A DNA stretch of 64,000 nt from Longimicrobiales bacterium (lineage in GTDB: Bacteria; Gemmatimonadota; Gemmatimonadetes; Longimicrobiales; Gaopeijiaceae). Position 1 is the stretch's first letter; every line of letters begins with the position of its first letter. Below are positions 1 through 14,052 of the stretch, piece after piece. Under the pieces are notes generated by a model. That model was not told where the DNA came from and searched no databases. It was given only the letters and a program-made list of their open reading frames with translations. The stretch lies in contig CAXXKM010000002.1 in the NCBI GenBank assembly GCA_963664435.2, positions 128,001 through 192,000 of the forward strand. The letters are read 5' to 3'. Position numbers and translations under genes: made by a program.

Positions 1-358
1 TGCCCTCGGCCATCAGGCGGGTGCTCCAGTGCGTCCCCCGCGGCGGTTTCTCCTCGAGCGTGCGGCGCACGACCTCGGCCTCGACTTCGGGCGTGATCGT
101 ACTTCGCGGCCGACCGGGGCGGGACCGATCCTCAAGTCCCGCGAGCCCCTCTTCGTCGTACCGGTCCAGCCATCTTTGCACGGTCGGCAGCGAGACGCCG
201 ATCTCGCGGGCCAGCGTCCGGCCCGGCAAACCTCCGGCCGAACCCAGTATGATCCGGGCGCGCTCCACGCGCCGCTGCGGGGTCGTGCGGGCTCGAACCC
301 ATCCCTCGAGCTCCTTGCGGTCCCCGGGTCGCAATCGAATCCTTCGCAGAGCAGGCAT
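1..358 (-). CDS. IS630-family transposase, N-terminal HTH part (runs off the window edge)
   Basis: Manual translation from ATG at 358 (not in the ORF track): MPALRRIRLRPGDRKELEGWVRARTTPQRRVERARIILGSAGG...IGVSLPTVQRWLDRYDEEGLAGLEDRSRPGRPRST...PPRGTHWSTRLMA, the typical IS630 N-terminus. Confidence 0.88.
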   Translation of the reverse strand, partial: MPALRRIRLRPGDRKELEGWVRARTTPQRRVERARIILGSAGGLPGRTLAREIGVSLPTVQRWLDRYDEEGLAGLEDRSRPGRPRSTITPEVEAEVVRRTLEEKPPRGTHWSTRLMAEG

Positions 359-418
359 GCATGGAAGATAGCGGCTTCTCCATGCGTTAACCCTGCCACT
401 TATGCGACACTACACTAG
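1..418 (-). mobile_element. IS630-family insertion sequence, end upstream of the transposase (partial)
   Basis: Transposase plus terminal sequence CTAGTGTAGTGTCGCATAAG on the - strand; CTAG at 415-418 fits the IS630 TA/CTAG target. Confidence 0.75.
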
Positions 419-473
419 GATACGATTTCGCGTTCCGGTTGCCGAGCGGGCTACGGCAGAGGAAGACCTGTGA
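417..473 (+). pseudogene. C-terminal remnant of a probable sensor histidine kinase interrupted by the IS630
   Basis: Reads (T)RIRFRVPVAERATAEEDL*, like the GTxxxxxxP end of HATPase_c; its TGA overlaps the GTG start of the response regulator (GTGA 470-473). Confidence 0.5.
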
Positions 474-1123: not shown

Positions 1124-1269
1124 AACAGCGGGGGCCACCTCAACGGCCGGAGCCTTCACGACAGTAGGGCCAGCAACGGCTCGATGCGACTGCAGAGTCC
1201 CGCTAATTGACTGCGACTTCGCCGCTGTTTCTGTACGGTGGAATCAGGAATGGGTTAGCGTCAAGGGTG

Positions 1270-1320
1270 GCAGATCGTGCAGTCCGAGTTGAACTTACGT
1301 GATTCCTTGCCGTGATTCGG
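1270..1320. repeat. Bipartite motif copy 1, candidate mobile-element end or recombination site
   Basis: GCAGATCGTGCAGTCC(1270-1285)-N22-TGCCGTGATTCGG(1308-1320); same layout as 13195-13245. Confidence 0.75.
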
Positions 1321-1332
1321 TTCCCCGTGAAT

Positions 1333-1620
1333 CTGCCGCTTCGCGCGAGCCCAATCGCGATGTCCAAGCGACCGGGTGAGCCTTCGCCCGTTCTCTCGCC
1401 ACTCTATCTGGTAGAGGCCGGTTTTCCGGTCGGGGAACACCCTGACCCGGTTCCGGCCCCATTCACCGGCGCCGTAGGAGCGCCGACTTCGTTTCGTGCG
1501 TGCCATCATTCGATTCCTCTCGGTGATGGACCGCACGATCTGCGCGAACGAAAGGTCGCGGAGAGAAAGCTCCTCCGCCAGTCGTGCCCGGACCGATGCG
1601 TTACCTTTCCGGGGGAGGTG
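1333..1620 (-). pseudogene. N-terminal fragment of a tyrosine recombinase/integrase-like protein, with the tail of the upstream small ORF in frame
   Basis: MARTKRSRRSYGAGEWGRNRVRVFPDRKTGLYQIEWRENGRRLTRSLGHRDWARAKRQ resembles an integrase arm-binding N-terminus; plausible sequence stops at about 1333 and no catalytic domain follows. Confidence 0.6.
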
Positions 1621-2264
1621 CGTATATGCGCGACCCGCCCCCGCCGAGGGCGCGATCACGACTGGTTGGGTGGTTGCGGTCGCCGTCGTGGGGGTGAGCG
1701 GCCGCTCGGTGGGTCGAGACTCTGCCCCGCGTTTGCGGGGTTTCCGTGGAGCCAGATGTGTTTTTGTTTCACGAAAACCTCTGGCCGGGGGTATCCCCCG
1801 GACCCCCGCAACGACGTTCCGCGCGCCACCAAGGGGAGGCCGCCCGGACATGGTTCGTCCCCGGAAACCCGAGGCCGAGCGCAGGACCCGCACGATCGGC
1901 GTGCGCGAGGAGCATGCCTACATGCGCTTGAGACTTTGACTTCTGATCGGCCGGCCGGTGGCGTACCGCGCGTGCACATCGACATCGGGGTGCATGTGCA
2001 CGGAATCACCGAGTCCATGTGCGCGGGCAAGGACTCCGTATGTGGCTGCCCGCGTTGCGGTTGCACCACGGCCGCACGAACGGCGGTGCCGTTCCAGAGT
2101 GTGCGGCCGTGGCGGGAGTGACCCCGGTGTTCGGCATGCCTCACACGCCACGGCGATGGTTGGGATGTGCACGCCATCCCACCCCCGCCTCGGGGTCACT
2201 CCCGGCCATCAATCCTTGCAGGAAGGCAGACTGCGACGCCTTAAGGACTCGGCCACGTCGACGG

Positions 2265-3308
2265 TCATCCCCAGCATTCGTTCAACGCCTGTTCAGCGCC
2301 GATGGACGGGATCCCCGGAACCGGCTCGTCGGTGACCAGGGTTACGCCCGTGTCGTGGAAATCCAGGCCGGGCGTGTTCTCAGGCCTTGCGCCCGTTGTC
2401 AGGAACTCTACAACGGCTTCGATTCCTAGGGAGGCCATTCTCAGTGGATACTGCATCGACGTGGCCCCGATCTCGCCAGCCGCCACGTTCCGGACACCTT
2501 CGCAGCCACCGTCGATGGTGAGGATGAGAACATCGTCCTGCACGCCCAGCCCCCGGAGCGCCGCGGAGGCTCCGGCGGCGGCCGGTTCATTGATCGCGTA
2601 CACCACGTTGATCGCCGGATCATCCCGCATCAGGCGTTCCATGGCGGCTCGCCCGCCTTCCTCGGTGCCCATGGTGGGGGCGCTCCCCACGATGCGGGGG
2701 TCGTCTTCGTCGTACATCCTGTTCGGGTCCTTGATGTCGATGCCGAAGCCGTCGAGGAAGCCTTGGTTGCGCAGGACCTCGACCGTGACCTGCGTCCCCG
2801 CGCCGTCCAGCGTAGCGATCCTCGCGTCGGCGGCGGAAGCACCCAGCCGGCCCCGAGCCCACATGCCGATCAACTCCCCGGCCCGGAAGTTGTCGGTGGC
2901 GAACGTTCCGTCCACCGCGTCCGCCGGATCGAAGGGCGTGTCGAGCGCGATGACGAGCACGCCGGCCCGCCGCGTCCGATCGACCGCGTCCAGCAGCGCC
3001 ACGGGATCCGACGGCGTGATCAGAATCCCCCTCGCGTCCGCGGCCAGGAGATTCTCGATGGCCCGAACCTGAGTGTCCGTGTCCCCGTCGAATCTCCCGG
3101 CGAAGGCGCGCAGTTCGACGCCGAGTACACCGGCGCGCTCGATTGCGCCCTCCCTCATCGTCACGAAGAACGGATTGTCCTCGGTCTTGGTGATCAGGCC
3201 GACAACCGGTTCCGCCTCGCCGGGTCCCGTGACGCATCCGGCAACGAGCGACACGAGCAGTCCGCAGATCAATCGCGCCCCTCCGAGCAAGCCCTTTGTG
3301 GATTCCAT
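2265..3308 (-). CDS. Sugar ABC transporter substrate-binding lipoprotein (FrcB/RbsB-like)
   Basis: Lipobox LVAGC; LITKTEDNPFF, IALDTP, FATDNF, TIDGGCEGV, QYPLRMA, terminal CWG; start moved from the ORF-track start to ATG 3308. Confidence 0.88.
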   Translation of the reverse strand: MESTKGLLGGARLICGLLVSLVAGCVTGPGEAEPVVGLITKTEDNPFFVTMREGAIERAGVLGVELRAFAGRFDGDTDTQVRAIENLLAADARGILITPSDPVALLDAVDRTRRAGVLVIALDTPFDPADAVDGTFATDNFRAGELIGMWARGRLGASAADARIATLDGAGTQVTVEVLRNQGFLDGFGIDIKDPNRMYDEDDPRIVGSAPTMGTEEGGRAAMERLMRDDPAINVVYAINEPAAAGASAALRGLGVQDDVLILTIDGGCEGVRNVAAGEIGATSMQYPLRMASLGIEAVVEFLTTGARPENTPGLDFHDTGVTLVTDEPVPGIPSIGAEQALNECWG

Positions 3309-3623
3309 TCGGTTCTCACGATTAGGGACAACAGCTTCGCGGCCCTGGCGGCCTGAGGAGGGCGAACAGCTCTCGGAGCTGCCCGTCCGCAAGCACCACG
3401 AATCATGGCCCGGAAGTCGAGAATCGGGAAGCGCCGCGACTCGCCGACCGGCTCGCGGAGTTCGCATGGAACGCCGGGACGGGTCGCTACCCGCTCCCTC
3501 GCGGATACTGCTTGTCAACGAAGCCGAGTGCGGCGAGCATTCCTGGCGGGTGGTAGCGACAGGGACCCGGCCGGAGGGAATGGCCACCTCCGGAGCACGT
3601 GAACCGGCGGAAGGAGCATCGAG

Positions 3624-4079
3624 ATGCGAAAGCTGCTGCTGGCTTGTCTGGCTCTGGTGCCTTCGCAGGTTCAGGCGCAGGAAACGGACGAGGCACGGGA
3701 AGTGCCGAGCCGTTTCGTTCTCGAAGCCGGGATCGTCGGCGGCAACAGCGTCGCGTGTCCCGGACACTACGTCGGCGTCAGCGGGCGCGTCGCCGGGCCG
3801 GTGTCGCTGTACGGGATGGTGGAGCACTACCGGTGCGCCGACTTGGCCGGGTCCGCCAACCGGATCGGCGCGTCGGTCCTCCTCGGGCGTTCCGGTTGGG
3901 TCGTTCGCCCGGCGTTGCGCGCGGGCATCGAGTACGACGGCGGAGGCGTTTCGCCGACCGCCGGTGCGAGCCTGACGTTCGGACGGCGCTACGGAGCGCG
4001 CTTCATCCTCCACGTCGGAGACGGGTCCGACGATACCAACATCGTGCTCTTCCAAATGGGCGGTTACATTTCGTTCTGA
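3624..4079 (+). CDS. Small exported protein, probable outer-membrane beta-barrel
   Basis: GGAG RBS, signal peptide ending VQA, alternating beta pattern, C-terminal GGYISF. Confidence 0.65.
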   Translation: MRKLLLACLALVPSQVQAQETDEAREVPSRFVLEAGIVGGNSVACPGHYVGVSGRVAGPVSLYGMVEHYRCADLAGSANRIGASVLLGRSGWVVRPALRAGIEYDGGGVSPTAGASLTFGRRYGARFILHVGDGSDDTNIVLFQMGGYISF

Positions 4080-4731
4080 GCCCCGATTGACGTTCCCGGC
4101 GGCGACGGGTTCGGTGCTCGAGTGCAGACAAGCACCGGGACGGGGGCTGTACTGCCTTCCCGCAGGGATCGCTGGTTCGGTAGCGACCCGTAAGGGGTCG
4201 GGGAAGGGGTGCGCAAACACACCTGCCCCCGAACCCGTAGCAGGCCCTCGGACTGCCGGGTCGCTACGGTCACGCCTTGAGCGGCCAGTGCGCCACGGGC
4301 GCACGGGCGGCGAGGCCGAAAAGCGTTGCCGCGCCAGCGGATAAGCGGGAAGGCCGGTGCGTAGCGCCGGATCGCCAAGGTGCGCATTGACCCCCCATGT
4401 CGTTTGCGCGTTTCAGTACGGCTCTAGAGGCGGGAGCGCCAAAAAAACCCCGGCGAACCGTTGCGTTCGCCGCTGGCCCACCGGGGATCCGGCCCTTGCG
4501 GACGAAGCCGCCTCGTATCCTTACGCCGTCTGCCCCGCCCGGGTTTCGGAGTATGCGGCCATCCGAGCCGCTGGCGGGGCTGGCCCCGGCGACCCGGATC
4601 ATGCTTTCAAGGGCCGACCTCCGGTGTCTTCGGCGACCGCTGCGGACAGATCAGCTTGGCGATAGAAGAGGGGAGGGCGTGAGCCGCGCGACTGACGTTC
4701 CGCGAGCGACTTGCATGGCGCGGACGGAGCC

Positions 4732-4765
4732 TGCCATTGTCCTTCCCTTGCCATTGTCCTTCCCT
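4732..4765 (+). repeat. Perfect 17-bp tandem duplication TGCCATTGTCCTTCCCT x2
   Basis: 4732-4748 equals 4749-4765; 33 bp upstream of ATG 4799. Confidence 0.9.
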
Positions 4766-4798
4766 CGCTCGCCTTCCCGGAGGAGATTTCGAGGCAGC

Positions 4799-6808
4799 AT
4801 GCGCTCCCAAGCATGGGTCGTCCTCGCCCTCGGGGTACTGGTCGCCGCGTGCGATAGCCCACTGGCGCCCGCGGCTTGCGGTGCGCTGCCCCAGTTGACG
4901 GTCCACGTGGGGGACACGTCCGGCGTCACCGCCTGCTTCAATGACGTGAACGGCGATGCGTTGAGTTACGCGGTCGGGTCATCGAACCCCTCGGTGGCCA
5001 CGGTCTCGGTTGCGGGGGCGGAGGTGACGGTGCGCGCCATCGCCCCGGGCACCGCGACGGTCATGCTGACGGCCACCGATCCGGCGGGGCTTGGAGATCA
5101 GCAGAGTTTCGAGGTCGTCGTGCCGAACCGGGCGCCGCGGGCAGTGGCCACGGTCCCGGAGCAAAGGGTCGAGGCGGGCGCGGAGGTAGTCGTCGATCTT
5201 GCGTCCTGGTTCGAGGAGCCGGACGGCGAGCACCTTCGCTTCCGGGTGACGGTCTCGGACGCCGAAGTCGCGGGCGTGGCCGTCTCGGGCAATCGGGCGA
5301 CGTTGGCGGCGCGGGCGAGGGGCACCGCCTCCGTCGCCGTCACGGCGACGGATCCCGGGGGCCTGGCGGCTGTTCAGGTGTTCGGTTTCGAGGTACCCAA
5401 CCGGGAACCGGTCGCGCTGGGCGTGATCGAGGGTCAAGTCATGCGGCGCGGAGAGACGCGCGTGATCGACCTTGCGCCGTTTTTCGCCGATCCAGACGGA
5501 GAGCCGCTGCGCTACGCTTCGTCGTCGTCGAGTCCCGGCGCGGTTGCGGCGACCGTCTTGGGCGAGTCCGTGCGCCTGACCGCTTTCGGGGCGGGGCGGG
5601 CGGCGATCACGGTGACCGCGCGCGACCCCGACGGCCTGACGGCGGCTCACATGTTCGGCGCGGAAGCTCGGAACCGGGCACCGATTACGACCGGTGCCCT
5701 GCCGGATGTCGATTTGGGTGCGGGCGATACGATCCGGCTGGATCTTGCGGGCCGCTTCTCGGATCCGGACGGGGACACGTTGACCTATGTGGCATCGTCT
5801 TCGGACTCTGCGGTCGCGTCGGTGGAGGTGCGTGGAGAGACCCTGCTGCTTTGGGGAGTGCGCGAGGGGCGGGTCACGGTCACCGTCCTGGCTTCAGACT
5901 CGGGCGACTTATCGGCCGCGCTGTCCTTCCAAGCGACGGTGGCAGGCGGCCCCGGGGACCCTAGGTCCTTCCAGATCGAAATCCGCTTCGCCACGGTGCT
6001 GACGGCCGCGCAAGAGAAGGCGTTCCAGAGAATGGCGGCGCGGTGGATGGAGATACTGGAAGACACGGAGTTGCCGGACATGCCGGTGCCGGAAGGCGTT
6101 GTCACGTGCCGATCCCCGGCCAGGACGCACGAGCAAGACGTGAGTGTCGTCGATGACCTGATGATCGTGGCGTCAGTCGAGGAGATAGACGGCGTCGGCG
6201 GGACGATCGGTCGAGCCGGACCGTGCGGGACTCGCGCGGGATCGATGCTTCCATGGTTCGGCGTGATGGAGTTTGACGCGGCGGACATGGCCTGGATGGA
6301 GGCGGAAGGGATTCTGGAATCCGTGATTCTCCACGAGATGGGCCATGTGCTCGGCATCGGCCCGTTGTGGGACGGGTTCGGGCTCCTGCGCAATCCATCG
6401 CTGCCTGTGGAGCGGGAGGTGGACACGCATTTCGCGGGAGCGCTTGCGATCCGGGCGTTCGACGAAGCGGGCGGGACCTCCTACACCGCCGGTTCCAAGG
6501 TCCCGGTGGAGAACAAGGGGATCCGCCGCGGCAGGGACGACGTGCATTGGCGCAAGAACGTATTCGGCAACGAACTGATGAATCCGAGCGCCGAGCCCGT
6601 GATGCCCCTCAGCGCGGTAACGATCGCGTCGCTCTCGGATATGGGGTACGCCGCGCGAACGGACCTCGCCGACGCCTACCGTCTTCCGGGCGCGGCCGCG
6701 TTGCGTGCGCATCGAAGCCGCGCCGTCCCTCTCGGCGAAGACGTGATCCGCGGCCCCATCGAGGTCCGCGACCGGCATGGCCGGGTGGTGGGGATCATTC
6801 GCCCCTGA
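4799..6808 (+). CDS. Surface lipoprotein: about 4 Ig/cadherin-like repeats plus a leishmanolysin (M8)-like zinc metalloprotease
   Basis: Lipobox LVAAC; repeats NRxP...F.DPDGD.L.Y...VTA.DP.GL; HEMGHVLG, later HW and NELM (Met-turn-like). Confidence 0.8.
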   Translation: MRSQAWVVLALGVLVAACDSPLAPAACGALPQLTVHVGDTSGVTACFNDVNGDALSYAVGSSNPSVATVSVAGAEVTVRAIAPGTATVMLTATDPAGLGDQQSFEVVVPNRAPRAVATVPEQRVEAGAEVVVDLASWFEEPDGEHLRFRVTVSDAEVAGVAVSGNRATLAARARGTASVAVTATDPGGLAAVQVFGFEVPNREPVALGVIEGQVMRRGETRVIDLAPFFADPDGEPLRYASSSSSPGAVAATVLGESVRLTAFGAGRAAITVTARDPDGLTAAHMFGAEARNRAPITTGALPDVDLGAGDTIRLDLAGRFSDPDGDTLTYVASSSDSAVASVEVRGETLLLWGVREGRVTVTVLASDSGDLSAALSFQATVAGGPGDPRSFQIEIRFATVLTAAQEKAFQRMAARWMEILEDTELPDMPVPEGVVTCRSPARTHEQDVSVVDDLMIVASVEEIDGVGGTIGRAGPCGTRAGSMLPWFGVMEFDAADMAWMEAEGILESVILHEMGHVLGIGPLWDGFGLLRNPSLPVEREVDTHFAGALAIRAFDEAGGTSYTAGSKVPVENKGIRRGRDDVHWRKNVFGNELMNPSAEPVMPLSAVTIASLSDMGYAARTDLADAYRLPGAAALRAHRSRAVPLGEDVIRGPIEVRDRHGRVVGIIRP

Positions 6809-6814
6809 TGGACG

Positions 6815-9800
6815 GTGCGCCGATCCGATCCGGGCCGGGGTCGTTCGCGGGCGACAAGATGCGAAGCCCACCGAGTGCTTGTAGATTGTAGTGGGTACCG
6901 GTTTGGGGGCGTTGCGCCACCCCCGGACCACCAAGCGTCGTTTGCCACCACTGGACCACAACATGACCCTCGCTTCAGCTACCCCCCCCCCCCCGAAACA
7001 TATGTAGCGGCTGTACTTAGAAGGCGTCCGGCCCGGTTCGCGCTTCGGACGGCAATCCTGCTGGCACTCTGGGTGGTGGCGTGCGAGAACCCCTTGGGTC
7101 CGGATCCCTGCGGCCCGATCCCGGAGGTGACGGTGCATGTCGGCGAGACGTCCCACGTCACCCCCTGCTTCAACGACCCGAACGGCGACATGCTGGTCTA
7201 TGCGGCCGCGTCGTCGAACCCTTCGGTCGCCTCCGCCTCGGTCTCCGGCACCTCGGTCACCGTAACCGGGGTTGCGCCCGGCAGCGCCTCGGTCACGCTG
7301 ACGGCCCGTGACCCCGGAGGGCTCCAGGGCCAGCAGAGCTTCACGGTCACGGTTCCCAACCGGGCGCCTCAGCCGAGGGGCACGCCGCCCGGCGTTACCG
7401 AGCGGGTCGGCGCCATCGCGACGGTCGACATGGCCGAGTACTTCACGGATCCGGACGGGGAAGCGCTCACCTACACGGCGAGCCCTTCGGATCCCGAGGT
7501 GGCGGGCGTGAGCGTTGCGGGTTCGGTGGTCACGGTCACCGCTTTGGCGAAGGGCAGTGCCACCGTGACGGTGACCGCACGCGATCCCGGGGGCCTCTCG
7601 GCCACGCAGTCCTTCCCGTTCGCGGTTCCCAACCGGCCGCCTGTTGCGGTGGGAACGCTTCAGCCGCAAACGATCGAGGTGGGCCAGTCCGTCACTCTCG
7701 ACGTGGTCGCTTCGTTCAGCGACCCGGACGGCGACGACCTGAGCTACACGGCCGCCTCATCGGCACCGTCGGTTGCGCGCACGAGCGTGGCGGGCAGCGT
7801 GGTCACGATCACCGCGGAAGGAAAGGGAACGGCCACGGTCACGATCACGGCGAGCGACGACGAGCCGGCAAGCGCGATTCAACAGGTGAGCGTGACGGTG
7901 TCCAACCGGCCGCCCGTGGCAGTGGGAACGCTTCAGCCGCAAATGATCGAGGTGGGCCAGTCGGCCACCCTCGACGTGTCCGCTTCGTTCAGCGATCCTG
8001 ACGGCGACGACTTGAGCTACACGGCCGCCTCATCGGTCCCGTCGGTTGCGCGCACGAGCGTGGCGGGCAGCGTGGTCACCATCATTGCGGAAGGACCGGG
8101 AGCGGCCACGGTCACGATCACGGCGAGTGACGACGAGCCGGCGACGGCGACCCAGCAGGTGAGCGTCACGGTGCCCCAGCCGAACCGGCCGCCACGCCCG
8201 GAGGGCACCGTCCCGGACCAGTCCATCGAAGCGGGCCGCCGTGCCACTGTGAACGCCGGGCGGTACTTCAGCGATCCTGACGGGGACGCGTTGACCTACT
8301 CGGCCTCGTCGTCCAACGGGACGGTGGCCGGTGTCTCGGTGTCGGACTCGACCGTGACGATCACAGCTGCGAGTCCCGGGACCGCGACGATCACGGTTAC
8401 AGCCCAGGACCCCGAGGGCCTCAGCGCGGCGCAGGACATCCGGGTCGACGTGGAGTCGGCGGGCGCGCCGGATCTGGAGTTCACCGGCGTCACCCCGACA
8501 TCGGTGACGGGGTCGCCGGGCGGGTCGGTGCAGGCCGCATTCACGCTTCGGAACGCGGGCGACGCGACCGCGCCCGCCACGACGATCCGCCTTTACGAAT
8601 CGTCCGACCCATCCATATCGACCAGTGACACGGAGATCGCGAGCGATCGAACCTCTGGGCTTCCGGCGGGGCAGAGCCGGACAATCACCGGAACGGTCAA
8701 CCTGTCGAGCCAAGCCTCCGGCACCTTCTACTTCGGGATTTGCGCCGACGCCGTTTCCGGCGAATCCGACACGGGCAACAACTGCTCGACCGGTGTCAGG
8801 GTGACGGTCACGGGTTCCGGCGCGCCGGATCTGGAGTTCACCAATGTCACGCCGACCTCGGTGACGGGGTCGGTCGGCGGGTCGGTTCAGGCCGATTTCA
8901 CGATCCGGAACACCGGCGACGCGCCGGCGCCGGCCACAACGATCCGCCTCTACCAGTCAGGCAACTCGACAATCTCGACGACGGACGACGAGATCGGTCG
9001 AACGGCCTTCGCCGGCCTCGCCGCTGGGCAGAGCCGGACGATTACCGGGACCGTGGCGAACCTGACCGCAGGCTCCTTCTACTTCGGCATCTGCATCGAT
9101 GCGGTGTCCGGCGAATCCGACACGGCCAACAACTGCTCGCGGGGCGTCCGCGTGACCGTCGGCGGGTCCGGCGGCCCCGATCTGGTGGTGAGTCTCTCCA
9201 GATCGAGCGTCACGGTGTCGCGCGGAAGCAGCTTTTCGTACGAACTGACGGTGCGCAACCAAGGCGACGAGGCGGCGGCGGCCACCCTCGTACGGACCCT
9301 GATTTCGGCCGACGCGACCATTTCCACCAACGACACCGACGTCGGCGCCGCTGCGGTGCCTTCCCTGAACCCGTCCGAGGAAGTGAGCGGCGAGGCCTTG
9401 ATCGAGATCGACGCCGGTGCTCCGTTGGGCACCGTCTATGTCGGGGAATGTGTCGACGCCGTTTCCGGCGAATCGGACACGAGCAACAACTGCTCGTCGG
9501 CGATAAGGGTCACGATACGGACCAACGGTGGCGGCAGCGACACGACGTACACGACGGGGCAGACGATCGAGACCCTCCCGACCGGATTCTGGACTCCGGA
9601 CACCTCGGGCGGCGGCATTTCCTTCCGGTACTCCAGCGGCGTAGCGACCGTGGAGTTCACCGGCACCAGTTCGTACATCGTCGAGGGCAACATCCGCTAC
9701 AGCTGTCTGACCAGCACGGGGTGCGAAATCGTGAACCGGCGGGTCACCCAGGGCAGCATCCGGGCCAGCAGGCAGTCGAGCGGCAGCCTGACGGTCGAAC

Positions 9801-10006
9801 CGCAATGGGATGGCCTGCTGCACTCTACGCGAGCGGAATGGACGGTCATCCGCCCGCGCCCCGGCGACGATCCGTCCGCGCTCCGCCTTCCGGTCGAGGG
9901 CGTCCTGCGCGTCAAGCCGGGCACCGAGCCGCAAGACGATGAAACCAGTCCGGTGAGGCGCGCGGTGACAGGCGGGACAATCTCCTCGTCCTCGGGCATT
10001 CGCTAG
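6815..10006 (+). CDS. Large surface lipoprotein: about 5 Ig/cadherin-like repeats plus 3 CARDB-like repeats (true start uncertain)
   Basis: Lipobox VVAC near 7075-7084; NRPP...FSDPDGDDLSY repeats; PDLEF...N.GDA.APATTIR...D.VSGESDT.NNC repeats. Confidence 0.82.
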   Translation: MRRSDPGRGRSRATRCEAHRVLVDCSGYRFGGVAPPPDHQASFATTGPQHDPRFSYPPPPETYVAAVLRRRPARFALRTAILLALWVVACENPLGPDPCGPIPEVTVHVGETSHVTPCFNDPNGDMLVYAAASSNPSVASASVSGTSVTVTGVAPGSASVTLTARDPGGLQGQQSFTVTVPNRAPQPRGTPPGVTERVGAIATVDMAEYFTDPDGEALTYTASPSDPEVAGVSVAGSVVTVTALAKGSATVTVTARDPGGLSATQSFPFAVPNRPPVAVGTLQPQTIEVGQSVTLDVVASFSDPDGDDLSYTAASSAPSVARTSVAGSVVTITAEGKGTATVTITASDDEPASAIQQVSVTVSNRPPVAVGTLQPQMIEVGQSATLDVSASFSDPDGDDLSYTAASSVPSVARTSVAGSVVTIIAEGPGAATVTITASDDEPATATQQVSVTVPQPNRPPRPEGTVPDQSIEAGRRATVNAGRYFSDPDGDALTYSASSSNGTVAGVSVSDSTVTITAASPGTATITVTAQDPEGLSAAQDIRVDVESAGAPDLEFTGVTPTSVTGSPGGSVQAAFTLRNAGDATAPATTIRLYESSDPSISTSDTEIASDRTSGLPAGQSRTITGTVNLSSQASGTFYFGICADAVSGESDTGNNCSTGVRVTVTGSGAPDLEFTNVTPTSVTGSVGGSVQADFTIRNTGDAPAPATTIRLYQSGNSTISTTDDEIGRTAFAGLAAGQSRTITGTVANLTAGSFYFGICIDAVSGESDTANNCSRGVRVTVGGSGGPDLVVSLSRSSVTVSRGSSFSYELTVRNQGDEAAAATLVRTLISADATISTNDTDVGAAAVPSLNPSEEVSGEALIEIDAGAPLGTVYVGECVDAVSGESDTSNNCSSAIRVTIRTNGGGSDTTYTTGQTIETLPTGFWTPDTSGGGISFRYSSGVATVEFTGTSSYIVEGNIRYSCLTSTGCEIVNRRVTQGSIRASRQSSGSLTVEPQWDGLLHSTRAEWTVIRPRPGDDPSALRLPVEGVLRVKPGTEPQDDETSPVRRAVTGGTISSSSGIR
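6982..6994 (+). repeat. C13 homopolymer in the 5' region of the large Ig-repeat gene
   Basis: Thirteen consecutive C counted at 6982-6994. Confidence 0.95.
7631..8176 (+). repeat. Recent intragenic tandem duplication, 273-bp (91-aa) unit x2
   Basis: AACCGGCCGCC..GTGGGAACGCTTCAGCCGCAAA at 7631 and 7904, with near-identical DNA downstream. Confidence 0.85.
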
Positions 10007-10036
10007 AGCAGAACCCCCTGAAATGAAAGGCAAACG

Positions 10037-10675
10037 ATGAAGAAACGCATCCCCATCCTGCTGGCTCTTGCCGGCCTCATTCTGATCGCCGCTCCCCTGA
10101 CGGCCCAGAAGACCCTCGGTCTGCGGGGCGGAGCCGGCTTCGCCTCCGTTTCCGTCGAGGAAGTGGGTCTCGATTCCGGATCCCGCAGCGGCATCGTCGT
10201 GAGCGCGGACCTGACCATTCCCGGACCCGGACTGTTCGACATCAGGGTCGGCGGCGCCTACGTGCAGAAAGGCGGAGGGTTCGGTGCCGATGAGCTCGAA
10301 GGATTGAGCGTCGGGCTCAACATCGACTACGCCCAGTTCTCGGGGTTGGCGCGCATCGGCACACACGCCGAGGGCGGACTGTTCGTGGGCGTGATGGCCG
10401 GTCCATGGATCGCGTTGCGGCTCTCCTGCAATCTGGAGGCTTCCGCTCCGGGGGAGGGCGTCAACATCAGTTCGAGTTGCTCCGACGCAGAGCTTGAGAC
10501 CAAGGCCCTGGACTACGGGATCGCCCTGGGCGCGGGCGCGGACTTCCCCATGGCCGGGATGCGCTTGGGCGTTGACGTGCTCTACTCGCTCGGCCTTGCG
10601 CCGGTGGCCGAGGACGACGACGCCATGACGCGGCACTTGGCCATCCAAGCGGGGATCAACATCCCGATCGGGTAG
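10037..10675 (+). CDS. Outer-membrane beta-barrel (porin/PorT-like) protein
   Basis: Signal peptide; GLRGGAGFA, YVQKG, DYGIALGAG, DVLYSLGL pattern. Confidence 0.75.
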   Translation: MKKRIPILLALAGLILIAAPLTAQKTLGLRGGAGFASVSVEEVGLDSGSRSGIVVSADLTIPGPGLFDIRVGGAYVQKGGGFGADELEGLSVGLNIDYAQFSGLARIGTHAEGGLFVGVMAGPWIALRLSCNLEASAPGEGVNISSSCSDAELETKALDYGIALGAGADFPMAGMRLGVDVLYSLGLAPVAEDDDAMTRHLAIQAGINIPIG

Positions 10676-10786
10676 TGGGCTGCGGCAGGCCCCGACACGG
10701 GGCAAAACGCACATGTTGAGTTGTCGGGCGGGCCGAATCGCCGGGACGAAGTGTTCCAACTGCCCGACAGCGCAAGGAAGCATTTC

Positions 10787-11596
10787 ATGATGATGTCGAT
10801 GATCAAAGCCGCCCGTGGACCGGCCAGCGTTCTGGTGCTGCTCGCACTGGCGGCCTCGCTGAGCGGTTGTTCCACACTCTTCATTCAGGAACCGCCTCGA
10901 ACGGGAATCGCCGCGCCCGGTTTGGCTGCGAGCGCGCCCCAATGCACGACGACTTCGATCTTGCCCGGAGCCTATCTTGCGGGTGCCACATTGCTGGGCA
11001 TCGTCGGCGTGACGGGCCTTGCCGTTGCTGCGGCGGGTGGATTGGAACCGGGAGGGGAGGGGGTGACAGCGGCGCTCACCGGTGCGGGCATGGGACTTGC
11101 CGGAGGGGTTGCCGGCTACAATCAAGCCAAAACCGGGCTTGAACGCATCAACGAATGCCGCGCGCTGCACCGGCGGTGGCAGAGCCAGCGCCTGAAAGAA
11201 CTGAGCCCCGGAGCGGCGCCGTCTCCGACAATTCCGGCGGATGGGGCCTGGTGCAGGGACTTGAGATTTCGGGATGTGCTCCCTCTCGCAGGGGACGTCT
11301 TAGGTGGGTCAGTGTGGCTGTTGGGCGGCCTTGCGGGGAGTGTGGGGGACGCGGAACGGACTTCCGGGGAAAAGGTGGGCGTCGCTGCAATCTCGGTCGC
11401 AGTCGGAGGCGCCTTTCTTTACTCGGGACGGATCGGCCGCAAGCGCTTGGAGCGAGGGTGTATGCCCACACTCCGCGATCCCTACAAGAGCGGCATCCGG
11501 AGCGTCGCGCCGGATTCCCTTCTGCCGTTGCGGGTAACTCCTGACACGCTCGTGGCTCCCGACCCGGGAGCCAGACAGAAGGGATCGGTCGGCTGA
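10787..11596 (+). CDS. Hypothetical membrane lipoprotein
   Basis: Lipobox LSGC; two hydrophobic glycine-rich hairpins, each ending in a Cys. Confidence 0.6.
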   Translation: MMMSMIKAARGPASVLVLLALAASLSGCSTLFIQEPPRTGIAAPGLAASAPQCTTTSILPGAYLAGATLLGIVGVTGLAVAAAGGLEPGGEGVTAALTGAGMGLAGGVAGYNQAKTGLERINECRALHRRWQSQRLKELSPGAAPSPTIPADGAWCRDLRFRDVLPLAGDVLGGSVWLLGGLAGSVGDAERTSGEKVGVAAISVAVGGAFLYSGRIGRKRLERGCMPTLRDPYKSGIRSVAPDSLLPLRVTPDTLVAPDPGARQKGSVG

Positions 11597-11871
11597 GTGG
11601 TTGCGGGGCCGCCGCCGGCCCCCATCTCCAGGCCAGTCTGGCTCCGAGAACGGTCAGGCTGCCTTCGCGCGTTCCGAAGCGCTGGCCTCACTCCCGATGG
11701 GTTTGATGCAGTCCTTGGAAGGCTGTGAGCGTCGGACCTACGACCCGGACACCAACAAGTGCAGTCTGACAGTTCGATACTTGAAGATTCGAGACGACAG
11801 GAAGACGCGGATCACGTTCTGGACGAGGGCCAGCGGCTTCTGCTACTTCCAAGGCACGGTGACCACGTAGC

Positions 11872-12786
11872 TCACGCGGGGTTGCCCGGTGCGGCCGCGT
11901 AGCGGAAGCCCGTCACCTCTTCGGTGACCCTCCAGAGGCGGCGCGCCAAGTCGTCGCTGCGGGCCGGTCCGCGGACGGGGATGCGGCGGGCCGGTCCCCT
12001 CAGCCCGAACCGGGGTCCGAAGAAGTCCAGCTTCCCGGCCGACGGATCGGTGGCGGCGCGCAGTTGTGGACGCACGCCGACATCGACCGGGGCGGCCAAC
12101 AGGCGGGCGAGCCGTCCGCCGATTCCGACCGACTGCTGGCGCTCGGTCCCGGTCAGGCCCGGATGGGCCGCGAGCGACAGGGCCGCCGCGCCCGCGGCGT
12201 CTAACCGTCCCTGAAGCTCCCGCGCGAACAACAGGTTGGCCAGCTTGCTGTCGCCGTACGCCTTGCCGCGGCTGTACGGACGCCCGCGCCAGTCCAGATC
12301 GCCGAAGTCGATGACGCCGGCCCGGTACGCGCCGCTGGTCACCGTGACCACGCGCGCGCCCGGCGTTGCCACCAGCAGCCCGAACAGATGTCCCGTGAGC
12401 AGGAAGTGGCCGTAGTGGTTCGTGGCCATGTGCATCTCGTGGCCGAGCGGCGTCCGTTGCAGTTCGGCGAGATTCACCACGCCCGCGTTGTTCAGCAGGA
12501 TGTCGAGGCGACCCGTTCGGGCGGCGACGCGTCCGGCAAAGCGCTCGATGCCCACCGGATCGGTGAGGTCCAGCGCGAAGCCCTCGACCCTCGCGCCCGG
12601 CAGGTCGGACAGAACCGCTCCGACGGCCGCCTGCCCCTTGGCCGCGCTGCGGCTGGACAGGAAGACCCGCGCGCCCCTGCGGGCCAACTCGCGAACGGAT
12701 CTGAAGCCGAGCCCCGTGTTGCCTCCGGTCACGACGGCCGTGCGGCCGCGAAGAGGCGGAATGTCTTCAAGTGTCCAGCCGGGCAT
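11872..12786 (-). CDS. Short-chain dehydrogenase/reductase (retinol-DH/WWOX-like)
   Basis: TGGNTGLG, NNAG, YGDSK, AHPG. Confidence 0.92.
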   Translation of the reverse strand: MPGWTLEDIPPLRGRTAVVTGGNTGLGFRSVRELARRGARVFLSSRSAAKGQAAVGAVLSDLPGARVEGFALDLTDPVGIERFAGRVAARTGRLDILLNNAGVVNLAELQRTPLGHEMHMATNHYGHFLLTGHLFGLLVATPGARVVTVTSGAYRAGVIDFGDLDWRGRPYSRGKAYGDSKLANLLFARELQGRLDAAGAAALSLAAHPGLTGTERQQSVGIGGRLARLLAAPVDVGVRPQLRAATDPSAGKLDFFGPRFGLRGPARRIPVRGPARSDDLARRLWRVTEEVTGFRYAAAPGNPA

Positions 12787-13194
12787 CGGGTTTCTCCGGG
12801 CAGGCAAGGCGTCGGGCCGCGTGTCGTCACTCGGGCCGCCGAACCTCGGCGGCCCGGGAATCTAGCGAAACCGCCCGGTTCGCTTCCACAAGCCTCTCCG
12901 TTCAGGGAGCCGGGCCGGGCGACGTCGCGATGATGCATCCCATCGGAGGGTCGGCGCATCGGTGTCCGCGTCCGGTGCTCCGCCCACCGCCGAATGATAG
13001 CGATCCACGCCGATCGCGGGCTGGCCGTCTTGGCCGTCGAGGTCGATCCGATTGCCGGTGAGGGAGACGGTCGGCAACGTCGGCTTCCGGGACCTTGGTC
13101 AGAGGCGGGGCGGGCGCGGGAGTCCCGCCATTCAAGTACGTTTTTCCCGCTTTGGCGGCACGGTCCAGCAAGGTCCAGTACAACGACAGGAAAC

Positions 13195-13245
13195 GCAGAT
13201 CGTGCAGTCCTGTATGTAGTTAGAAGATCTACTGCCGTGATCCGG
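13195..13245. repeat. Bipartite motif copy 2, candidate mobile-element end or recombination site
   Basis: GCAGATCGTGCAGTCC(13195-13210)-N22-TGCCGTGATCCGG(13233-13245). Confidence 0.75.
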
Positions 13246-13248
13246 ACC

Positions 13249-14052
13249 TCAGGTGCTCCGTGTGTCCAGCGCGCCCACCAGCGTCACCATGATGAAGGAC
13301 GGCAGGAGCGCCCAGAACTCCGGTCTGAAGCTGAGGTCGACGCCGGGATAGGCCCGTGGGGGCAACCCGATCCAGGCAGCTTCCGCAACCGCGGATGTGT
13401 CGTACAGGCCGAATCCCAGCCGGGCGGTCAGGCAGCCCGCGACGATGCCGATGGCCGGTGCCCACAGGCGCAGTGCCCCGGAGGCCCGAAGCGGGACGAG
13501 GATCATGACCAGCAGCGTCACCCCCGCGATGACCGGGCCCGCGGCGGGCGAAACATCCGGGGGCACCTCGCCCAGCTTGCGAACGATGAGGGGCGAGAGG
13601 GTGATCGGGATGAGGAGCAGCACGGTGCCGGCGACCATGGGCGTAAAGATTCGCCTGAGGAGCGCCATCCTCGCCGCCAGGACGAACTGAATCAGGGCGG
13701 ACGCGATGATCAGGGTCGCGAGCATGCCCGGTCCGCCCTGCTCGAGCGCCGTCACGCTCACGGCGAGGAAGGCGCTCGTGCTCCCCATCACGAGGATGTA
13801 GCCGGCGCCGATGCGGCCCACCTTGCGCGCCTGAATCGCCGTCGTCACCCCGCTGACCACCAGCGCCGCGCACACCGCCCACGACAGGTAGTCGTCGCCC
13901 ATGCCGGCGACGGTGATCATCACCGTGGGCGTCAGGATGACGCTCGCGATGCAGAGGATGGCGTACTGGATGCCCAGCCCGGCCGTGATCGGCAGGGGGG
14001 GACGCTCGTCGGGTTCGTAGCGGACGTCCTGCCGGTCGATCGCCGAACTCAC
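13249..14052 (-). pseudogene. NCS2 (xanthine/uracil permease)-family gene, 3'-truncated
   Basis: YEPDERPP, GIQY, SGVTTAIQ, RIFTPMVAGTV; only 267 aa, ending abruptly at VTLVGALDT-RST*; full NCS2 proteins exceed 400 aa. Confidence 0.75.

What the first reader, a model, noticed from the sequence alone, without database searches (positions are those of the whole stretch)
1270..13260. Same bipartite DNA motif at two gene-truncating junctions: candidate ends of nested tyrosine-recombinase mobile elements
Seen: GCAGATCGTGCAGTCC-N22-TGCCGTGATYCGG occurs at 1270-1320 and 13195-13245 in direct orientation. The arms match 16/16 and 12/13, and both spacers are exactly 22 bp, relatively AT-rich and share TG.A.TTA...GAT. 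Flanking DNA is unrelated. Each copy lies about 12-15 bp left of the point where a minus-strand gene breaks off (integrase-like fragment at about 1333; NCS2 permease at about 13260). The arms are weak inverted repeats of each other (GATC core). Inference: each copy is the right end of a related integrative element. Element B (about 1333-13260, integrase at its left side, cargo of surface proteins) inserted into the NCS2 gene. A relative, element A, then inserted into B's integrase, or a deletion joined them. This would be a transposon-like tyrosine-recombinase family with low target specificity and no classical TIR/TSD.
Basis: partly seen in the sequence, partly recalled or inferred. Interest (0 to 1): 0.8.

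Follow-up and report, generated by a model that had tools for sequence, protein, structure and literature searches.

The report
Nested integrase elements with drifting targets
The repeated motif marks one end of a family of integrase-carrying mobile DNA elements with about two dozen copies in a sponge-type bacterium; each element inserts where a 7-letter word it carries matches the chromosome, and that word changes as the family evolves, which shows how such elements acquire new target sites.

Summary
Observation confirmed and nesting model proven from sequence. The motif is one end (L end) of a tyrosine-integrase element family: 45 L ends and 29 R ends in this genome, about 11% of it. Element B (13 kb) splits the NCS2 gene; element A (16.7 kb) splits B's integrase. 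Both missing 3' halves lie left of the window, relatives hold the empty NCS2 site, and an intact B copy (1 difference in 11,932 bases) sits in an IS1595 gene. Distant relatives sit at tRNA anticodon loops; the sponge clade left tRNAs. Siblings carry conjugation or mobilisation genes, so these work like ICEs/IMEs with lambda-type overlap homology. Excision and transfer were not observed. The scan noted a related nested element before in another genome.

The parts
1..419 (-). End of a multicopy insertion sequence (helix-turn-helix transposase start at 2-358) lying inside element A
   Evidence: Pfam HTH_32/HTH_29; 8 further copies at about 98.7% in the genome
470..1123 (+). LuxR-type response regulator, last cargo gene of element A
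   Evidence: PF00072 + PF00196; lies between A's two ends
1257..1343 (+). L end of element A: bipartite motif 1270-1320, core, and 7-bp overlap at 1337-1343 (CGAAGCG on the minus strand). A spans C2:112,658-129,343, has its own intact integrase and its R end 15.3 kb left of the window
1337..1509 (-). 5' part (codons 1-58) of element B's integrase, cut at codons 56-58; the 3' part is at C2:111,667-112,664 and is 100% identical to the intact copy on C3
1528..1543 (-). Third copy of the 16-bp box, just upstream of the integrase start codon; in conjugative members it overlaps the last codons of an excisionase-like gene
1746..1939 (+). Repeated stretch with inverted repeats and a 29-codon start resembling MobC/NikA: probable relic of a transfer origin region (inferred)
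   Evidence: repeated in other elements; the 29-aa piece has no Pfam hit, a similar 50-aa piece in a sibling hits NikA-like below cut-off
2265..12807 (.). Cargo of B: sugar-binding protein, two large Ig-domain proteins (one with a metallopeptidase-like domain), outer-membrane beta-barrel, unknown proteins, short-chain dehydrogenase
13182..13268 (+). L end of element B: bipartite motif 13195-13245, core, and 7-bp overlap at 13262-13268 (TGGACAC on the minus strand). B spans C2:111,564-141,268 including A
13262..14052 (-). 5' half of the NCS2 permease gene, interrupted by B; 3' half at C2:110,600-111,570
   Evidence: NCBIfam ncs2/pbuX; PF00860 on the 3' half; intact gene in G082, G005, G053

Best explanation
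The motif is the inner, arm-type part of one attachment end of a family of integrative elements moved by a three-domain tyrosine integrase. SHOWN from sequence: each element reads L end - cargo - integrase - R end; both ends finish in the same 7-bp word, flanked by a very short inverted core (YG before, C at +2 after); the empty target holds that word once; the word is inherited with the element and drifts by 1-3 bases between sub-lineages; A sits in B's integrase and B in NCS2; siblings carry conjugation or mobilisation genes; distant relatives sit at tRNA anticodon loops. INFERRED: the element excises as a circle by lambda-type 7-bp staggered exchange and re-integrates at sites where the chromosome matches its 7-mer within a tolerable core, so the target is written mainly in the element's own DNA; the family descends from anticodon-loop integrases (stem = core, loop = overlap) and left tRNAs in sponge symbionts; the 13-bp-spaced repeats at both ends bind the arm domain; the 16-bp box binds an excisionase-like factor supplied by conjugative members; precise excision of A restores B's integrase, which would explain the near-identical A-free copy of B on C3.
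For: Window 1333-13278 = C3:71,404-59,459, 1 difference in 11,932 bases between overlaps. Missing halves and duplicated 7-mers. Empty NCS2 site with one 7-mer in G082, G005, G053. Pairing without using the 7-mer: 24 of 29 R ends have an exact partner within 60 kb against 1.7 (max 6) in 2000 shuffles; 2 more pair after a one-base register shift or just beyond 60 kb; repeats are never shorter than 7 and exactly 7 in 8 of 26. Same 7-mer in 27 of 29 pairs (13 of 15 disjoint pairs) with integrases at least 95% identical and unrelated 30-base flanks, against 5 of 4317 below 75%. 56 words in 104 insertions. Catalytic R236, K263, H333, R336, W357, Y367 conserved; three-strand-plus-helix N-terminal domain and full-length match to lambda Int. 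T4SS genes, MobC, relaxase in siblings. tRNA next to 9 of 15 distant relatives plus one half tRNA; tRNA-type rows basal, 66 non-tRNA rows in one clade at support 89. Overlap identity sets specificity in mv4 Int in vitro.
Against: No circle, excision or transfer was observed; there is no read-level evidence. 3 of 29 R ends and 19 of 45 L ends have no partner. 4 of the 26 pairs rest on assumed joins between contig ends. In other genomes 11 of 14 same-locus L/R pairs match; one differs by 2 bases and two are unrelated or weak. One L-L unit has a 1-base mismatch and one R-L junction has only 4 bases between cores. Only a few of the 13-88 sites per genome that fit 7-mer plus core are used, so other determinants exist; B's two targets share 5 further bases. 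The tree is FastTree with moderate support and a midpoint root. Nothing tested what binds the 16-bp box. A and B themselves carry no intact transfer genes.
Confidence: 0.85

Rival explanations
1. Transposon-like, homology-independent insertion (Tn916/CTnDOT type, or a mechanism that copies any target 7-mer to both ends).
For: Many unrelated targets in genes, repeats and sibling elements; a few mismatched pairs; IntDOT tolerates overlap mismatches (abstract).
Against: The 7-mer is the same at unrelated targets in 27 of 29 close pairs and identical at both ends in 26 of 29; a target-derived word would not be inherited. Limited mismatch tolerance remains likely as the route by which the word changes.
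Confidence: 0.05
2. The integrase protein reads the 7-mer directly, so the word changes only when the protein changes; DNA homology is incidental.
For: 7-mer divergence rises with integrase divergence; positions 1, 2 and 7 of the word are biased.
Against: Four pairs at 96-100% integrase identity differ in the word (two of them at homologous targets); in lambda-type and mv4 systems overlap sequence is free as long as both sites match.
Confidence: 0.07
3. The motif is an operator or promoter element of intact genes, not an element end.
For: The 16-bp arm alone also lies upstream of the integrase genes (27 upstream regions, one of them an L end), also in distant tRNA-type relatives.
Against: The full two-arm form lies a fixed distance from crossover words that pair with R ends and split genes. 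A regulatory role of the box is compatible with the main reading.
Confidence: 0.01
4. The intact B copy on C3 comes from strain mixing in a metagenome assembly, or A inserted recently and repeatedly, so no excision of A is implied.
For: The two B copies differ by 1 base; five intact integrase genes in this genome carry A's target word and core; a sister of A sits at the same codons of another integrase.
Against: Both C3 junctions are precise and split an IS1595 transposase, which an assembler would not invent; G101 holds the same B-with-A nest at 92-99% identity, so the nest predates the C3 copy unless insertion recurred. This rival touches only the 'reversible switch' step.
Confidence: 0.25

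Closest known systems
ICEs, IMEs and CIMEs with tyrosine integrases (review PMC5704250, passages read)
   Same: Integrase at one end, short direct repeats at attL/attR, conjugative, mobilisable and decayed members, accretion, insertion into oriT or genes of other elements (IME_oriT).
   Different: The passages give one copy for most IMEs and 2-6 copies for low-specificity ones. Here one integrase clade has 26 paired insertions in a genome with at least 18 different overlaps, and the overlap varies as an inherited trait.
Lambda Int and phage mv4 Int (bioRxiv 10.1101/2023.11.06.565760, abstract and sections 16, 20 read)
   Same: Three-domain integrase, 7-bp overlap between inverted core sites, identity of overlaps required; mv4 Int accepts any matched overlap in vitro and has degenerate cores.
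   Different: Those use one natural site; this family appears to have explored 56 overlaps in nature. Sequence identity to lambda Int is 17-18%.
Tn916/Tn1549 and CTnDOT integrases (PMC8138268 section 5 part 2; PMC2817482 abstract)
   Same: Arm-binding domain of three strands and a helix; many target sites per genome.
   Different: They insert without strict sequence specificity or with overlap mismatches; here both ends match and targets are GC-rich.
tRNA anticodon-loop integrases of the same bacterial family
   Same: 37-63% identical proteins, same gene orientation, paired repeats after the stop codon, same 16-bp box in four of them.
   Different: They carry a replacement tRNA half and stay at tRNA genes; 2 of 104 scored insertions of the sponge clade do, plus two more members in this genome.
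Helper-embedded PICIs / regulated gene integrity (PMC10111431, passages read)
   Same: Elements that integrate in genes of other mobile elements without a replacement sequence.
   Different: No phage helper genes were found in the elements examined; the interrupted gene is a sibling's integrase.

Membership tests
Tyrosine recombinase with arm-binding domain | Catalytic R-K-H-R-H/W-Y set and phage_integrase domain | tested here: met
   PF00589 68.5 bits, cut-off 27.1; R236, Y367 invariant, K263, H333, R336, W357 at least 90% in 73 sequences
Tyrosine recombinase with arm-binding domain | N-terminal three-strand-plus-helix arm domain | tested here: met
   AlphaFold model pLDDT 93.5: strands 22-26, 33-39, 42-47, helix 53-68; full-length Foldseek match to lambda Int 1z1b. 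DNA binding itself untested.
IntTn916 subgroup (Smyshlyaev 2021) | Beta-stranded insertion in the catalytic domain and placement in that clade | tested here: inconclusive
   Model lists only two strands of 3+ residues in the catalytic domain; the subgroup HMMs were not available
Lambda-type site-specific integrative element | Identical 7-bp overlap at attL and attR, single copy at empty attB | tested here: met
Lambda-type site-specific integrative element | Excision to a circle with attP | not testable with these tools
   No read-level result was obtained
ICE | Own type IV secretion system, coupling protein and relaxase | tested here: not met
   Absent from A and B. Present in siblings: four elements share the gene set; VirB2/3/4/6/8/9/10/11-like and coupling protein confirmed by Pfam in one; relaxase only as a Replic_Relax lead
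IME | Relaxase/MobC or a functional oriT | tested here: inconclusive
   B has only a relic; ten regions of the family carry MobC-like genes, relaxase confirmed in one; oriT function untested
Tn916/CTnDOT-type homology-independent transposon | Non-matching overlaps at the two ends; target word not inherited | tested here: not met
tRNA anticodon-loop islands | Crossover in an anticodon loop with replacement tRNA half | tested here: not met
   Not for A or B; met for three siblings at tRNA-Val and tRNA-Pro
Integron | IntI integrase with attI and attC cassette array | tested here: not met
   NCBIfam gives only XerA/C/D-type models far below cut-off; nearly every unit has its own integrase and two different ends. 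No attC model was run.

The most novel reading that the evidence does not exclude
A natural, DNA-addressed integration system: a clade of near-interchangeable integrases needs almost no fixed target sequence, so each element's 7-nt overlap acts as its address. Dozens of co-resident elements stay orthogonal through their addresses, retarget by changing 1-2 bases, and use addresses inside each other's integrase genes, leaders and transfer origins, so that excision of one (A) switches on another (B).
Probability: 0.45. Interest if true: 0.82.

Novelty: new variant of a known kind. Interest (0 to 1): 0.63.

Why it matters
How site-specific integrases change their target is an old question usually studied on single phages. 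This family is a natural series: 104 insertions, 56 overlap words, near-identical integrases, tRNA-bound relatives as outgroup, and some mismatched intermediates. It makes the overlap-switching model testable with a few cloned integrases. It accounts for about 11% of this symbiont's genome and moves surface-protein cargo, so it may be a main engine of genome change in sponge Gemmatimonadota. An integrase with a minimal core and a free 7-mer would also be a candidate retargetable tool for GC-rich bacteria.

Tried and rejected
Deletion joining A and B: rejected, both 3' halves are present. Chance or operator-only reading: rejected. Pfam on the 82-aa truncated peptide and on the NCS2 5' half gave nothing; full-length copies and NCBIfam resolved both. 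No solved structure is similar by sequence. First regex pairing had a wrong spacing and was redone. A tblastn search for an intact copy of the IS1595 target in this genome found only one distant partial match, so that empty site is supported only by the Pfam domain ending at the junction and the shared 7-mer. One search's check of a reading frame through the box was off by one base and is not used. Six public runs in three studies hold 86-93% of the stretch's words but no read or contig layout was obtained, so they are not used as evidence. PHROGs and Pfam do not name the excisionase-like gene; the Atlas gives HTH_17 only as a 13% lead. The careful tree did not finish; the quick tree was used. 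Mageeney et al. 2020 could not be read (one search fetched an unrelated paper).
Full report
OBSERVATION. The two motifs are present as described. Scanning the whole genome (4.51 Mb, 3 contigs; window = C2:128,001-192,000) gave 39 hits with up to 5 mismatches at spacer 22 and 2 at all other spacers from 18 to 26. A weight matrix found 43 sites; two one-base spacer variants were added, 45 in all, two or three of them weak. The 16-bp left arm also occurs alone, 17-21 bases upstream of the start codon of a multicopy gene. tblastn with the window's peptide found 28 copies of that gene, 22 of them 380-410 residues; the full-length protein is a phage-type tyrosine integrase (PF00589; phrog_1).

THE TWO JUNCTIONS. 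Window 1333-13278 is 99.97% identical to C3:71,404-59,459, and C2:111,559-112,664, 15-16 kb left of the window, is 100% identical to the rest of the C3 integrase and its downstream end. So element B exists twice: intact on C3 and, here, split at integrase codons 56-58 by a 16.7-kb element A with its own intact integrase. Left of B's far end lies the 3' half of the NCS2 gene (PF00860). Each insertion is bounded by a repeat: CGAAGCG for A (window 1337-1343), TGGACAC for B (13262-13268). On C3, B splits an IS1595-family transposase with the same TGGACAC at both ends and different bases on either side, which fixes the overlap at exactly 7. The orthologous NCS2 gene is intact, with one copy of the word, in G082 (92% identical), G005 and G053; G101 and G102 carry a B-type end at the same base. 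G101 holds the whole nest, with pieces 85-99% identical to ours, whereas the two B copies in this genome differ at 1 of 11,932 bases.

THE FAMILY IN THIS GENOME. The other end (R end) starts after the integrase stop with two 13-bp-spaced repeats, and the overlap follows 83 bases later. Of 29 R ends, 24 have a correctly oriented L end with the identical 7-mer within 60 kb when ends are listed without using the word; 2000 shuffles of the L words give a mean of 1.7, maximum 6. One more pairs after a one-base register shift and one just beyond 60 kb; the 26 pairs have repeats of 7-32 bases, never under 7, exactly 7 in 8. Four pairs cross contig ends that I assumed to be adjacent. Three R ends and 19 L ends are unpaired. 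The 24 automatic pairs use 18 different words. Spans that I drew by hand from these ends total 516 kb, 11.4% of the genome. With my own codon-model gene calls, four elements share a conjugation gene set and ten regions a MobC-like gene; Pfam confirmed VirB2, B3, B4-like, B6, B8, B9, B10, B11-like, coupling protein and ArdC in one element, and MobC, MbeD-like and a relaxase in another. A and B have neither. Targets include tRNA-Val and tRNA-Pro anticodon loops, intergenic palindromes, host genes, and integrase genes, leaders and probable transfer origins of siblings.

RELATIVES. 23 of 100 sampled genomes of the family have the integrase at E <= 1e-40, up to 19 scored matches each. Named records are Longimicrobiales, Ca. 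Palauibacter and other Gemmatimonadota bins, many with names of sponge data sets (the sponge link rests on those titles, on my knowledge of them, and on one run label). The same two ends recur; 11 of 14 same-locus L/R pairs match, one differs by two bases, two are unrelated or weak. Among 104 distinct insertions with at least 300 residues of integrase (109 before removing 5 duplicates) there are 56 different words, and they follow the integrase tree (quick IQ-TREE). For pairs whose 30-base target flanks are unrelated, the word is identical in 27 of 29 at 95% or more protein identity (13 of 15 disjoint pairs), 15 of 35 at 90-95%, 5 of 43 at 85-90%, 21 of 121 at 80-85% and 5 of 4317 below 75%. 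Pairs share ancestry, so these are descriptive. Target cores are minimal: C at +2 in 86% of 91 distinct right flanks, G at -2 in 75% of 24 left flanks. Of 15 distant relatives (32-63% identity) 9 have a whole tRNA gene beside the integrase and one a half; all six at 48-63% do. Of the 104 insertions, 2 are at tRNAs, and two further weak ARAGORN calls lack a T-arm. In an 85-row FastTree the tRNA-type rows are basal and 66 non-tRNA rows form one clade with support 89 (midpoint root, no one-clade test, three outgroup loci with short matches left out).

PROTEIN. Catalytic residues are conserved across 73 sequences. The AlphaFold model (pLDDT 93.5) has an N-terminal three-strand-plus-helix domain, a helical core-binding domain and a catalytic domain; Foldseek ranks XerA, lambda Int (full length) and Tn1549 Int first at 16-19% identity. 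449 cluster representatives score E <= 1e-30; the few named ones read 'integrase'.

MECHANISM. Shown: architecture, 7-bp repeat, empty sites, inheritance and drift of the word, nesting. From established knowledge: tyrosine integrases generally enforce identity of a typically 7-bp exchange segment (PMC10111431, passage), and mv4 Int recombines any matched 7-mer between degenerate cores (preprint sections 16 and 20). Inferred: these elements excise and integrate by that chemistry, so the element's own 7-mer plus a minimal core selects targets; 13-88 sites per genome fit each of eight words tested, enough for several alternative sites. The core consensus equals the anticodon stem ends of the tRNA-type members, which suggests descent from anticodon-loop integrases. 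The L end carries repeats like those of the R end on both sides of the 16-bp box, the layout expected of arm sites around an accessory-protein site; in conjugative members the box overlaps the end of a 132-residue gene coupled to the integrase, whose Atlas neighbours carry HTH_17 in 13% of one cluster. That this protein binds the box is a guess. Because the B-with-A nest is shared with G101 while the A-free copy is almost identical to ours, A probably excised precisely and restored B's integrase recently; repeated insertion of A is the alternative.

AGAINST. No circle, excision or transfer was seen, and no read-level evidence was obtained. Unpaired and mismatched ends exist; they may be decay or intermediates of word change. 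B's two targets share five bases beyond the word, and most fitting sites are unused, so the core matters more than the consensus shows.

COMPARISON AND NOVELTY. The family works like ICEs/IMEs with lambda-type integrases; accretion, insertion into oriT and low-specificity IMEs in 2-6 copies are known (PMC5704250, passages). A and B are not ICEs (no transfer genes), fail the test for Tn916/CTnDOT-type homology-independent insertion, and are not integrons. I found no description of this clade in eight full-text searches; the Palauibacterales paper has no occurrence of 'integrase' in its main text (PMC10469786). The library lacks most subscription papers; Mageeney et al. 2020, which I recall discusses site-promiscuous integrase clades, could not be read, PMC12884075 mentions such clades in passing (passages), and the TIGER/Islander database (search listing only) may already hold these islands. 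No supplements were read; those of these papers and of PMC8138268 (abstract and section 5 part 2 read) may bear on classification. PMC2817482 was seen as abstract only. The scan earlier noted a related element nested in a sibling's integrase in another genome (e1-4024118) and a multicopy integrase module in sponge-type Gemmatimonadota (e1-3834811); these are unchecked notes, and the first pointed me to the streptococcal IME comparison.

VERDICT. Real feature; nested-element reading confirmed, mechanism corrected to homology-dependent integration with an inherited, drifting 7-bp overlap. New variant of a known kind; interest 0.63.

Noticed in passing
G000 C3:1,132,000-1,202,500 (L117:266-340): One tRNA-Val(TAC) gene is built from the R ends of two elements inserted at its anticodon loop in opposite orientations: one supplies the 5' half, the other the 3' half; both original halves are displaced.
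   Followed up: partly
window about 20,196 and 20,238; 16 sites in the genome: A short intergenic palindrome, often in pairs, matches the family's core-7-core layout and is the target of several elements. A second palindrome is the target of the CGTAACG/CGTTACG group in either orientation. Origin of both repeats unknown.
   Followed up: partly
G000 C2:913,691 and C3:622,951; L033, L043, L048: Several L ends sit directly upstream of mobC in a conserved inverted-repeat region, i.e. elements insert in the probable transfer origin of sibling elements; that it is oriT is inferred from position.
   Followed up: partly
G000 C3:705,200-713,730: An 8.5-kb unit bounded by two L ends facing each other, overlaps differing by one base, no family integrase.
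   Followed up: no
G000 C3:727-880: An R end fused directly to an L end with 4 instead of 7 bases between cores: an attP-like junction, probably dead.
   Followed up: no
G000 C2:832,194-839,058: An element inserted between the 16-bp box and the start codon of a sibling's integrase; the same target is used in L068, L082, L089.
   Followed up: no
G000 C2:899,195 (minus strand): The first ~105 residues of a family integrase run in frame into a 1,500-residue fibronectin/cadherin-like, autotransporter-like sequence (domain names from appearance, not searched).
   Followed up: no
L013:9,919: In G102 the B-type integrase is split at codon 48 by a different family member with another 7-mer.
   Followed up: partly
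G000 contig ends: Matching element ends suggest C1 end joins C2 end and C1 start joins C3 start.
   Followed up: partly
L121 (G000 C2:463,501-478,000): Cargo of one element looks like a type I CRISPR-Cas gene set (from appearance of the translations, not searched).
   Followed up: no
L028, L070, L072, L079, L080, L083, L087: Integrases 72-79% identical occur in bins labelled Acidobacteriota or Gammaproteobacteria; transfer between phyla or misbinning not resolved.
   Followed up: no
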